This document shows, in pieces, positions 33,001-36,000 of a DNA stretch of 64,000 nucleotides. Position 1 is the stretch's first letter; every line of letters begins with the position of its first letter. Source of the DNA: Escherichia coli O157:H7 (lineage in GTDB: Bacteria; Pseudomonadota; Gammaproteobacteria; Enterobacterales; Enterobacteriaceae). The position numbers were made by a program. The DNA lies in NCBI RefSeq assembly GCF_013167455.1, contig NZ_CP038328.1, one strand, 5' to 3'.

Positions 33001-36000
33001 TTTTGCGGGTTGCCAATTGGCGTCAGTAGCGAACCAGCGTTGACTGCCAGCGCCTCAAAAATAATCAGCCGATTAACCGGGATCTCACACAGCCTTTTTA
33101 GCGTGATAGTCAGCGGAACAACAATAAACAGCGTGACATCGTTGGTCAGAAAGGTAGAAAGCAGCGCCGCCGCCAGCACCATAAACATCGCCAGCCGACG
33201 CTCCGTAGCAAAGCGGCGCACCATTTTGCGCCCCAGCACATCAAAATAACCGCTTAACTCCACACCTTTGGTCAGCAGCATCAGGCCGCTTAAGGTGATG
33301 ATGGTGTGCCAGTCGATAGCAGCAGGCCAGGATTTCGGTGCAAAGGGCACGAAAAAACTTAATCCGATACCAACAAGAATTAATAACTGAAAAAAACGAT
33401 CGCCTTGCAGCGTGCGTAAAAAAAGCAGGCTCATTTGGCACCGTGTTTCTGGGTAAACAAACGAAAGGCATCCAGCGTCTCTTCACTAACATGGTGCTCC
33501 ATGCCTTCCGCGTCGCGACGGGCGATTTCCGGACTGACGCCCAACACCAACAAGAAATTTTCGACTATCTGATGTCGCTCGCGGCTTTCCTGCGCCAGCT
33601 TCTCTCCTTCTGCCGTTAAAAACACGCCACGCCAGGGGATCATTTCAATCAGCCCCATAGTTGCCAGTCGCTTAAGCATTTTAGCCACCGTCGGTTGCGA
33701 AACTCCCAAACGAGCAGCCATGTCTACCTGACGAGCTTCCCCCACTTCCCTGATCAAGTCAGAAATCAGCTCAACGTAATCATCAATAAGCTCGCGCCGA
33801 TGCGCCTCTCTGACCTGGCGGAACCCTTCAACGTGCTCTTCCTCGTTCACTAACTGCGTCACTTTTTTTGCTGTTGGCGTACCTGCGCGACGACTCATTG
33901 TGCTTCCTCATTATGGTGACGCATACATAGCGTTCTCATTTCGTGCGCACATTGTAAACCAGAGTTGCGAAGGTACAAAAAATTAACGTTTTAGCAATAG
34001 CTATATAATATAGCCTGTGCTATATCTGTATGTAATGCAATCATCCCTCAAGGATCGACGGGATTAGCAAGTCAGGAGGTCTTATGAATGAGTTCAAGAG
34101 GTGTATGCGCGTGTTTAGTCATTCTCCCTTTAAAGTACGGTTAATGCTGCTCTCTATGTTGTGCGATATGGTCAACAACAAACCGCAGCAAGATAAACCT
34201 TCCGATAAATAGCGGCGTCGCGGTACGCCGCTTCACTCCTGCTTTCATGCAGGCACGACGCGTTTTGGTCTGAAAAACCCCACTTTTTGTCGGATTTGCA
34301 ATCCCCTTCGCAAAAGATTTGTTCGTCAGTAGTTGACCTGAACTGCGGCTCGCTCTATCTTCTTGCAGCCCTGCGTATATTGCGGCTCGCGGATGCGGAC
34401 CCCTTTCCCCTCTTCACGCACTCTTGCAGGTATTGACCCTTGACGCCAGGGTAAGCACATGGCGTTTGTTACGATAGTGGCATATGAATTTAACCCTCAA
34501 AGAATCGCTTGTTACCCGTAGCCGGGTATTTAGCCCGTGGACTGCGTTCTACTTTTTACAGTCGCTATTAATTAACCTCGGCTTAGGTTACCCCTTCAGT
34601 TTGCTCTACACCGCTGCGTTTACGGCTATTTTGCTTTTGCTATGGCGAACATTGCCTCGCGTACAAAAAGTTCTGGTCGGTGTCAGTTCGCTGGTGGCGG
34701 CTTGTTATTTCCCTTTTGCTCAGGCCTACGGCGCGCCTAATTTCAATACATTGCTGGCATTGCACTCCACCAATATGGAAGAGTCGACCGAAATCCTGAC
34801 GATTTTTCCGTGGTACAGCTACCTGGTCGGCTTATTTATTTTTGCGCTCGGCGTAATAGCAATCAGGCGAAAAAAAGAGAATGAAAAAGCGCGCTGGAAT
34901 ACCTTCGACAGCCTGTGTCTGGTATTCAGTGTGGCGACATTTTTTGTTGCTCCCGTGCAAAACCTGGCCTGGGGTGGCGTATTTAAACTGAAAGATACTG
35001 GCTATCCGGTATTTCGTTTTGCTAAGGATGTCATCGTCAATAATAACGAGGTGATTGAAGAGCAAGAACGGATGGCAAAACTTTCCGGAATGAAAGATAC
35101 CTGGACGGTCACTGCCGTTAAGCCGAAGTATCAGACCTATGTGGTGGTGATCGGTGAAAGCGCGCGTCGCGATGCCCTCGGTGCCTTTGGCGGTCACTGG
35201 GACAATACCCCGTTTGCCAGCAGCGTTAACGGTTTGATATTTGCTGACTACATTGCCGCCAGTGGCTCCACGCAGAAATCGCTTGGCTTAACGCTCAATC
35301 GCGTAGTCGATGGCAAACCACAGTTTCAGGATAACTTTGTCACCCTGGCAAATCGCGCGGGCTTCCAGACCTGGTGGTTTTCCAACCAGGGCCAAATCGG
35401 CGAATACGATACTGCTATCGCCAGCATCGCCAAACGTGCAGATGAAGTGTACTTCCTGAAAGAAGGTAATTTTGAAGCAGATAAAAACACGAAAGACGAA
35501 GCGTTACTGGATATGACCGCTCAAGTGCTGGCGCAAGAGCACTCGCAACCGCAGCTGATTGTTCTGCATCTGATGGGCTCGCATCCGCAGGCCTGCGACC
35601 GGACAAAAGGCAAATACGAAACCTTTGTGCAATCGAAAGAAACGTCGTGCTATCTCTATACTATGACGCAAACGGACGATTTACTGCGCAAGCTGTACGA
35701 TCAGTTACGCAACAGCGGCAGCAGCTTCTCGCTGGTTTACTTTTCTGACCACGGTCTGGCCTTTAAAGAGCGCGGCAAAGACGTGCAATACCTTGCCCAT
35801 GATGATAAGTATCAGCAAAATTTCCAGGTGCCTTTTATGGTCATTTCCAGCGACGATAAAGCGCATCGGGTGATTAAAGCCCGCCGCTCAGCCAATGACT
35901 TCTTAGGCTTTTTCTCGCAGTGGACGGGAATTAAAGCGAAGGAAATTAACATCAAATACCCGTTTATATCTGAGAAGAAAGCCGGGCCGATATACATCAC

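What the first reader, a model, noticed from the sequence alone, without database searches (positions are those of the whole stretch)
33995..34026. Overlapping palindromes upstream of mntS resembling MntR operators
The mntR-mntS divergent region holds agctatataatatagc and atatagc-ctgt-gctatat dyads about 60-90 bp upstream of the mntS ATG. Their half-sites resemble the MntR box, consistent with Mn-dependent repression of the small protein MntS. The mntS ORF itself is too short for the ORF track and had to be read by hand.
Basis: partly seen in the sequence, partly recalled or inferred. Interest (0 to 1): 0.3.

Follow-up and report, generated by a model that had tools for sequence, protein, structure and literature searches.

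The report
Paired MntR operator at mntS promoter
The palindromes are real: they are the already-published pair of binding sites through which the manganese sensor MntR shuts off the small-protein gene mntS in E. coli, so the finding is correct but ordinary.

Summary
The window is E. coli O157:H7. They are far from chance. A matrix trained only on the K-12 mntH and mntP MntR boxes ranks two 18-mers here first and second of about 64,000 in the window.

The geometry needs a correction. The element is two adjacent 18-bp MntR boxes, A (33989-34006) and B (34008-34025), each with an ATAGC-N4-GCTAT core and separated by one base (34007).

The boxes cover the core promoter for either candidate start site (34034 or 34017). 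They are nearly invariant, with fixed spacing, in 75 distinct Enterobacteriaceae sequences.

The literature already states that two MntR sites overlap the mntS promoter, spaced as in B. subtilis mneP. Verdict: supported, already known, low interest.

By-products:
- The same paired-box design sits upstream of sitA-type genes in metagenomes.
- A matching MntR box lies in the dps promoter.
- A P2-like prophage integrates inside the operator in 30 E. coli genomes.

The parts
33989..34006 (.). MntR box A (weaker): TTTTAGCAA|TAGCTATAT, core TTAGC-AATA-GCTAT
   Evidence: One mismatch to ATAGC-N4-GCTAT. PWM rank 2 in the window at 16.3 bits. The TAGC and GCTA cores are invariant in 75 Enterobacteriaceae sequences, while the spacer base 33996 and the outer bases vary.
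34007..34007 (.).
   Evidence: Sequence and inverted repeat I1. The same 1-bp separation of 18-bp sites is described for B. subtilis mneP and stated to be identical at mntS (PMC11882963).
34008..34025 (.).
   Evidence: Perfect core. PWM rank 1 at 21.5 bits, above all 200 null simulations. 14 of 18 columns are invariant and mean identity is 98.9% in 75 sequences.
34000..34014 (.).
   Evidence: Everted half-site order. Junction-centred 18-mers score -28 to -43 bits. Base 34006, the innermost base of its left arm, is the most variable position of the core (A28/T24/C18/G5).
34018..34026 (+). Extended -10-like element TGcTATATC, embedded in the right half of box B
   Evidence: It lies 7 nt upstream of the TSS mapped at 34034. 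All nine bases are invariant in 75 sequences. Assignment as the -10 element is my inference.
34034..34034 (+). mntS/RybA transcription start (A) from genome-wide TSS mapping
   Evidence: Kim et al. 2012 Table S1 lists the rybA TSS at NC_000913.2 852270(-), 1402 reads, with flanking sequence ending ...CTGTATGTA. The Term-seq 3' end at 852845 equals window 34236 and gives 203 nt, fitting the published '205 nt' RybA.
34017..34017 (+). Alternative 5' end of RybA as annotated in RefSeq K-12 (853064)
   Evidence: ncRNA rybA is annotated at 852725-853064 in NC_000913.3. The K-12 spacer is identical to the window. The source of this end was not traceable with the papers held.
34004..34009 (+). Consensus TATAAT at the A/B junction; candidate -10 for a start near 34017
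   Evidence: Sequence. Shimada 2014 predicted TTAACG-16-TATAAT for mntS within an RpoD SELEX peak. It reads TAnAAT in other genera.
34074..34079 (+). mntS Shine-Dalgarno AGGAGG
   Evidence: Sequence; conserved.
34084..34212 (+). mntS CDS (42 aa)
   Evidence: ORF listing and RefSeq annotation. All homologues found carry Pfam PF26599 and are named MntS.
33431..33898 (-). mntR CDS (155 aa), the cognate regulator, divergent from mntS
   Evidence: ORF listing. NCBIfam NF008273 MntR equivalog scores 269 bits against a cutoff of 153.
33944..33978 (-). mntR promoter: TSS 33944, -10 TACAAT (33956-33951), weak -35 TTGTAC (33978-33973). Boxes A and B are centred at -53.5 and -72.5 from this start.
   Evidence: Kim 2012 lists the mntR TSS at 852360(+), 24 reads, 46 nt before the ATG. 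The -10 coincides with the invariant block CATTGTAAAC.
34004..34012 (.). TATAATATA: core duplicated at both ends of a P2-like prophage inserted here in 30 E. coli genomes (attB inside the operator)

Best explanation
The 37-bp element at 33989-34025 is the paired MntR operator of the mntS (rybA) promoter. It consists of two 18-bp inverted-repeat boxes, each with an ATAGC-N4-GCTAT core, separated by one base pair.

When intracellular Mn2+ is high, Mn-loaded MntR dimers occupy the strong box B and the weaker box A. The 1-bp separation matches that of the cooperative B. subtilis mneP sites, so binding is probably cooperative. The bound dimers cover -45 to -9 relative to the mapped start at 34034, or -28 to +9 relative to the RefSeq 5' end at 34017. 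Either way they exclude RNA polymerase and shut off mntS.

What is shown here: sequence match, geometry, promoter overlap and conservation. What comes from the literature: MntR- and Mn-dependence of mntS expression, and the existence of two sites. What is inferred: cooperativity, and which -10 element is occluded.
For: - Window identity and gene order: mntR divergent from mntS.
- Exact ATAGC-N4-GCTAT core: 2 observed against 0.07 expected.
- A PWM trained on independent K-12 sites ranks boxes B and A first and second in 64 kb.
- The same half-site and N4 spacing were read in the K-12 mntH, mntP (two sites) and dps promoters.
- TSS at 34034 with 1402 reads; RefSeq 5' end at 34017.
- 75 distinct Enterobacteriaceae spacers: box B 98.9% and box A 85.7% identical, against 56-66% for flanking spacer; no insertion column between the boxes, and only 2 sequences carry a gap, at the outermost base of box A (33989).
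- Within E. coli, the 81-bp core is at least 99% identical in 5080 of 5421 genomes, against 674 of 5421 for the surrounding 1.1 kb.
- Of 120 metagenomic loci holding the paired-box pattern, 105 abut Mn-homeostasis genes: 56 sitA-type, 46 mntR/mntS, 2 mntH, 1 mntP.
- Literature: two MntR sites overlap the mntS promoter with mneP-like spacing (PMC11882963); PmntS-egfp repression by Mn needs MntR (PMC9806134); mntS is repressed by MntR:Mn (PMC4361602).
Against: - I could not read a footprint, EMSA or ChIP for this site; the primary papers (Waters 2011, Yamamoto 2011) are not held.
- The start site is ambiguous by 17 nt (34034 against 34017).
- Cooperativity is inferred only from spacing.
- The invariance of 34018-34036 could owe as much to promoter and start-site function as to MntR contacts.
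Confidence: 0.92

Rival explanations
1. One reading: three half-sites forming two overlapping operators, so that the spacer-1 dyad GCTATAT-A-ATATAGC is itself bound by an MntR dimer.
For: It is a perfect 7-bp-arm palindrome, and the exact GCTAT-N5-ATAGC pattern is unique in the window.
Against: - The half-sites are in everted order relative to every other E. coli MntR box, which are all ATAGC-N4-GCTAT.
- PWM scores for 18-mers centred on it are -28 to -43 bits.
- The single-box targets mntH and dps have no such dyad.
- Base 34006 within it varies freely among genera.
- A conserved TTAGC half-site at 33991-33995 completes a normal box A.
- With up to 1 mismatch the everted pattern is at chance level: 3 observed against 1.44 expected.
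Confidence: 0.04
2. The palindromes exist mainly as a phage attachment site or recombination target, not as a regulatory element.
For: A P2-like prophage is inserted with the duplicated core TATAATATA (34004-34012) in 30 of 5421 E. coli genomes.
Against: - The element is conserved across some 20 genera regardless of prophage presence.
- It matches MntR boxes at unlinked Mn genes.
- The same paired design sits in front of sitA, mntH and mntP genes elsewhere.
- Temperate phages commonly target conserved sequence, so use as attB is best read as secondary.
Confidence: 0.02
3. An AT-rich promoter sequence whose TATA-like repeats are palindromic by chance; regulation of mntS by Mn would then be indirect.
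For: The region holds -10-like hexamers (TATAAT, TATATC), and the simple scan finds promoter-like sites.
Against: - No shuffle reproduces two exact cores.
- PWM rank 1 and 2 in the window.
- The G and C bases of the cores, which are irrelevant to a -10 hexamer, are invariant.
- No Fur box is present: the best match has 9 of 19 mismatches, against 4 for the mntH Fur box.
Confidence: 0.02

Closest known systems
E. coli mntH MntR box (AAACATAGCAAAGGCTATGTTT; Patzer & Hantke 2001, cited in PMC11882963)
   Same: The same half-site AyATAGC, the same 4-bp central spacer and the same regulator. It also gives Mn-dependent repression of a gene needed when Mn is scarce.
   Different: mntH has a single box plus a Fur box. 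mntS has two abutting boxes and no Fur box.
The published paired MntR sites of the mntS promoter (Waters, Sandoval & Storz 2011, as summarised in PMC11882963)
   Same: This is the same locus and the same element: two sites overlapping the promoter, 18 bp each, 1 bp apart.
   Different: Nothing substantive. The O157:H7 spacer is identical to K-12.
B. subtilis mneP/mneS MntR site arrays (cryo-EM, PMC11882963)
   Same: 18-bp sites made of 9-bp inverted repeats, separated by 1 bp; this spacing supports dimer-dimer contacts.
   Different: There, four weak sites activate an exporter gene. Here, two sites (one strong) repress. The proteins are distant homologues, and cooperativity of E. coli MntR is untested.
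E. coli mntP upstream MntR sites
   Same: Two MntR boxes with the same cores.
   Different: The mntP sites are 40 bp apart centre to centre, lie far upstream of the promoter and are associated with activation. The mntS sites are 19 bp apart and lie on the core promoter.

Membership tests
E. coli-type MntR (DtxR-family) operator | 18-bp inverted repeat with AyATAGC half-sites and a 4-bp centre (ATAGC-N4-GCTAT), matching known targets | tested here: met
   Box B is a perfect match and box A has 1 core mismatch. A PWM from mntH and mntP ranks them first and second in the window.
E. coli-type MntR (DtxR-family) operator | Position overlapping or adjacent to the core promoter of a Mn-responsive gene | tested here: met
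   The boxes span -45 to -9 of TSS 34034, or -28 to +9 of the RefSeq 5' end at 34017.
E. coli-type MntR (DtxR-family) operator | Cognate regulator encoded in the genome | tested here: met
   Divergent mntR; NF008273 scores 269 bits against a cutoff of 153.
E. coli-type MntR (DtxR-family) operator | Conservation of half-site cores in orthologous promoters (phylogenetic footprint) | tested here: met
   75 distinct sequences from about 20 genera. The cores are invariant, and the variable positions are the spacer and outer bases.
E. coli-type MntR (DtxR-family) operator | Direct Mn-dependent binding of MntR to the DNA | not testable with these tools
   Secondary statements only (PMC11882963). The primary papers are not held.
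E. coli-type MntR (DtxR-family) operator | MntR- and Mn-dependent repression of the downstream gene in vivo | not testable with these tools
   Reported in PMC9806134 and PMC4361602.
Cooperative abutting MntR site pairs (18-1-18, mneP type) | Two 18-bp sites separated by exactly 1 bp, with the spacing conserved | tested here: met
   33989-34006, then 34007, then 34008-34025. The alignment has no insertion column between the boxes, and only 2 of 75 sequences carry a gap, at the outermost base of box A (33989).
Cooperative abutting MntR site pairs (18-1-18, mneP type) | Cooperative binding through dimer-dimer contacts | not testable with these tools
   Suggested by analogy in PMC11882963.
Fur box | Match to GATAATGATAATCATTATC | tested here: not met
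   The best match in the spacer has 9 of 19 mismatches, against 4 for the known mntH Fur box.
Rfam RNA family over the region | Covariance-model match | tested here: not met
   No match at E<=1 over 33800-34600.

The most novel reading that the evidence does not exclude
The abutting 18-1-18 MntR operator fused to a core promoter may be an ancestral sitA-type promoter module. mntS would have kept it when it evolved from the 5' end (signal-peptide region) of a sitA gene.

In metagenomes the same paired-box pattern lies 38-40 nt upstream of the ATG of SitA-family Mn-binding-protein genes in 31 of 36 distinct upstream sequences (56 of 120 loci are sitA-adjacent). That would extend the published protein-level origin story (Wright et al., bioRxiv 2023.06.02.543501) to the cis-regulatory DNA.

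A second, weaker possibility: the boxes are centred at -53.5 and -72.5 from the mntR start, so they might also modulate mntR-ybiR transcription.
Probability: 0.35. Interest if true: 0.3.

Novelty: already known. Interest (0 to 1): 0.1.

Why it matters
It confirms a textbook-level regulatory site, so it matters little as a discovery. Its practical value is a precise coordinate map: boxes A and B, the 1-bp separator, the two candidate start sites, and the mntR promoter.

That map shows three things:
- The 'overlapping palindromes' are a geometric consequence of two abutting palindromic boxes.
- The strong box's right half doubles as an extended -10-like element.
- The RefSeq RybA 5' end (34017) disagrees by 17 nt with genome-wide TSS data (34034), a discrepancy that annotation curators could resolve.

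Tried and rejected
- The primary papers were not retrievable: Waters 2011, Yamamoto 2011 and Thomason 2015.
- The Ettwiller 2016 TSS supplement is truncated before this coordinate. Conway 2014 has no supplement held. The Martin 2015 supplements hold no cloning primers that would fix the Storz-lab +1.
- Rfam gives no hit for RybA.
- Shimada 2014's predicted mntR promoter ATTACA-18-TATATT, also found by the consensus scan, would have put the boxes on the mntR core promoter. It is not supported: the mapped mntR TSS is 33944, with -10 TACAAT.
- A protein search with MntS, meant to reach MntS-like SitA signal peptides, returned only MntS proteins.
- I tested whether a transporter divergent from an mntR homologue across a paired box (L160) is related to E. 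coli YbiR. It is not (BLASTP E=0.23).
- The third-ranked PWM hit, 34628-34645 inside opgE (12.7 bits), is within the null range and is treated as chance.
- There is no Fur box in the spacer.

Full report
**Identity of the locus.** The 1.1 kb around the finding is 100% identical to E. coli O157:H7 chromosomes and is present in 5421 of 5426 complete E. coli genomes. RefSeq annotation and the ORF list give this order: ldtB, ybiR (-), mntR (33431-33898, -), mntS (34084-34212, +, 42 aa), opgE, ompX, rhtA, dps. The 185-bp mntR-mntS spacer is identical in K-12 MG1655. The mntR product scores 269 bits on the NCBIfam MntR equivalog, against a cutoff of 153.

**The observation.** Both dyads are present exactly as described.
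- GCTATAT (34000-06), A (34007), ATATAGC (34008-14).
- ATATAGC (34008-14), CTGT, GCTATAT (34019-25).

They lie 59-85 bp upstream of the mntS ATG. The repeat finder also reports a larger imperfect palindrome, with 15-nt arms at 33992-34006 and 34008-22, centred on 34007.

**Comparison with independent MntR boxes.** I fetched the K-12 mntH and mntP upstream regions and read the boxes directly.
- mntH: ACATAGC-AAAG-GCTATGT.
- mntP: TTAGC-CAAA-GCTAT and ACATAGC-TTAG-GCTATAT.

The common denominator is ATAGC-N4-GCTAT. In the window this pattern occurs exactly twice, against 0.07 expected, and no shuffle of 100 reaches 2. One copy is at 34010-23. The other is at 38107-20, which is 50-63 bp upstream of the dps ATG; dps is a published MntR target. 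With one mismatch allowed, a third match appears at 33991-34004, TTAGC-AATA-GCTAT, directly upstream of the first.

A palindromic 18-bp PWM trained only on mntH and the two mntP boxes gives these ranks among all 63,983 positions:
- 34008-34025: rank 1, 21.5 bits.
- 33989-34006: rank 2, 16.3 bits.
- The dps box: rank 4.

In 200 first-order Markov simulations the maximum averaged 10.7 bits (sd 2.7, highest 20.5). A score at least equal to box A's appeared in 6 of the 200.

**Geometry.** The element is therefore two 18-bp boxes, A (33989-34006) and B (34008-34025), separated by the single base 34007. Three results show the junction is not an operator:
- Its half-sites are in everted order.
- 18-mers centred on it score -28 to -43 bits.
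- Its inner base 34006 is the most variable position in the whole core.

**Promoter context.** Kim et al. 2012 (PMC3415461, Table S1) list a rybA TSS at NC_000913.2 852270(-) with 1402 reads. Its flanking sequence ends ...CTGTATGTA, which places the start at window 34034. Their Table S2 notes that three methods found a start upstream of the old RybA annotation.

Immediately upstream lies TGcTATATC (34018-26), an extended -10-like element that is part of box B's right half. Assigning it as the -10 is my inference.

RefSeq K-12 annotates the RybA 5' end at 853064, which is window 34017. That end would fit the consensus TATAAT at 34004-09, which Shimada 2014 also predicted. A Term-seq 3' end at 852845 (window 34236; PMC7815308) gives a 203-nt RNA from 34034 and a 220-nt RNA from 34017. 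The published main species is '205 nt', so 34034 fits better. I could not settle the point.

For either start the boxes cover the core promoter: -45 to -9 relative to 34034, or -28 to +9 relative to 34017. That is the classical arrangement for repression by occlusion.

The mntR start maps to 33944 (24 reads). Its -10, TACAAT, coincides with the invariant block CATTGTAAAC. The boxes therefore sit at -53.5 and -72.5 from the mntR start, not on the mntR core promoter.

**Conservation.** A genome scan with MntR returned 80 loci from about 20 enterobacterial genera, with 86-99% MntR identity. Of these, 77 have a divergent mntS at a spacer length of mostly 181-191 bp. The table shows mean identity to the window in 75 distinct spacers.

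| Segment | Mean identity |
|---|---|
| Box B | 98.9% (14 of 18 columns invariant) |
| 34026-34036 | 98.7% |
| Box A | 85.7% (TAGC and GCTA cores invariant) |
| mntR 5'UTR, mntR promoter spacer and mntS 5'UTR | 56-66% |

The variable core positions are 33996 (centre of box A), 34006 and 34009. These are the same positions that differ among known boxes (ACATAGC against ATATAGC). The alignment has no insertion column between the boxes. Only 2 of 75 sequences carry a gap, at the outermost base of box A (33989).

Within E. coli, the 81-bp core is at least 99% identical in 5080 of 5421 genomes. For the surrounding 1.1 kb the figure is 674 of 5421.

**Literature.**
- PMC11882963 (Nat Commun 2025), citing Waters et al. 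[quoted passage not shown] It adds that, assuming 18-bp sites of two 9-bp inverted repeats, their spacing is identical to that in B. subtilis mneP/mneS. In mneP, cryo-EM shows 18-bp sites separated by 1 bp and cooperative dimer-dimer contacts.
- PMC9806134 shows that PmntS-egfp is repressed by Mn only when MntR is present.
- PMC4361602 and PMC8632737 restate MntR:Mn repression of mntS.

The finding is therefore correct and already known.

**Wider occurrence of the design.** They divide as follows:
- 46 are mntR/mntS loci.
- 56 place the pair directly upstream of a SitA/MntC-family Mn/Fe-binding-protein gene.
- 2 are upstream of mntH, and 1 is upstream of mntP.
- 15 have no recognisable neighbour; several of these sit at contig ends.

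Among the SitA-adjacent loci, the ATG follows 38-40 nt after the pair in 31 of 36 distinct upstream sequences. Family assignments were checked with NCBIfam. MntH and MntP score above their cutoffs. The SitA-like proteins reach E of about 1e-60 on Mn-binding-protein models but stay below the model-specific cutoffs.

This supports the view that abutting MntR boxes fused to a core promoter are a general module of Mn-uptake genes. It is also compatible with, but does not prove, inheritance of the mntS operator from an ancestral sitA, as proposed at protein level by Wright et al..

**Rivals.**
- A Fur box is excluded: the best match has 9 of 19 mismatches, against 4 for the mntH Fur box.
- No Rfam family covers the region.
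- The dyads lie upstream of both mapped starts of the flanking genes, apart from part of box B if the start is 34017. An RNA-hairpin role is therefore unlikely.
- Use as a phage attB is real but secondary (see the separate notes on things seen in passing).

**Verdict.** Observation confirmed, interpretation supported with a geometric correction, already known, low interest.

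Noticed in passing
window 38105-38122 (core 38107-38120): A perfect MntR-type box, ACATAGC-CGGT-GCTATAC, lies 50-63 bp upstream of the dps ATG (38170). It is the only other exact ATAGC-N4-GCTAT in the window and ranks fourth by PWM. It corresponds to the published MntR repression of dps (Yamamoto 2011, cited in PMC5553809).
   Followed up: partly
window 34004-34012; L086 (NZ_AP031375.1) 556-9589: In 30 of 5421 complete E. coli genomes a P2-like prophage or remnant is integrated inside the MntR operator. In strain 160-11H1 it is about 8.9 kb and carries integrase, CI, CII, Fil, Dam, a replication endonuclease fragment, a portal fragment, a reverse-transcriptase-domain protein and a serine O-acetyltransferase. 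The duplicated core is TATAATATA. Box A stays with mntR. Box B and the extended -10 stay with mntS, now preceded by the phage sequence ATAGT-TGAT-GCTTT, which partly mimics box A. The integrase has only weak DNA similarity to Fels-2, SEN8 and SopEPhi. The effect on mntS regulation is unknown.
   Followed up: partly
window 34017 versus 34034: The RefSeq K-12 RybA 5' end (853064, window 34017) differs by 17 nt from the TSS in Kim et al. 2012 (window 34034, 1402 reads). The latter fits the 205-nt RNA and the Term-seq 3' end at window 34236 better.
   Followed up: partly
window 33944-33978 (minus strand): The mntR TSS (Kim 2012) is at 33944, with -10 TACAAT at 33956-33951; this explains the invariant block CATTGTAAAC. 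The A-rich block ACAAAAAATTAACG (33975-33988), between the mntR -35 and box A, is also about 92% conserved and has no assigned function. It could be an UP-element or a -35 for either promoter.
   Followed up: no
L087-L206 (metagenome loci), e.g. L089 5931-6003, L099 696-767: Abutting MntR box pairs lie 38-40 nt upstream of SitA-family Mn-binding-protein genes in many uncultured bacteria, with the recurrent centre CTGT/ACAG as in E. coli box B. Single cases lie upstream of mntH (L194, L202) and mntP (L121).
   Followed up: partly
L160 6804-6834: In an AT-rich metagenomic contig, a paired MntR box lies between an mntR homologue (NF008273, 171 bits) and a divergent 392-aa membrane protein of the NCBIfam 'arsenic efflux protein' family. 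That protein is a candidate Mn-regulated transporter. It is not related to E. coli YbiR.
   Followed up: partly
L144 76-106: A metagenomic E. coli-like contig carries box A followed by a hybrid box B (ATAGC-CATT-GCTA), with mntS 13.5 kb away. This is probably another prophage at the same attB whose end regenerates a box-like sequence.
   Followed up: no
window 33431-33434: The mntR stop overlaps the ybiR start (ATGA-type 4-nt overlap), so the uncharacterised anion-transporter-family gene ybiR is probably co-transcribed and translationally coupled with mntR. Its relation to Mn homeostasis is unknown.
   Followed up: no
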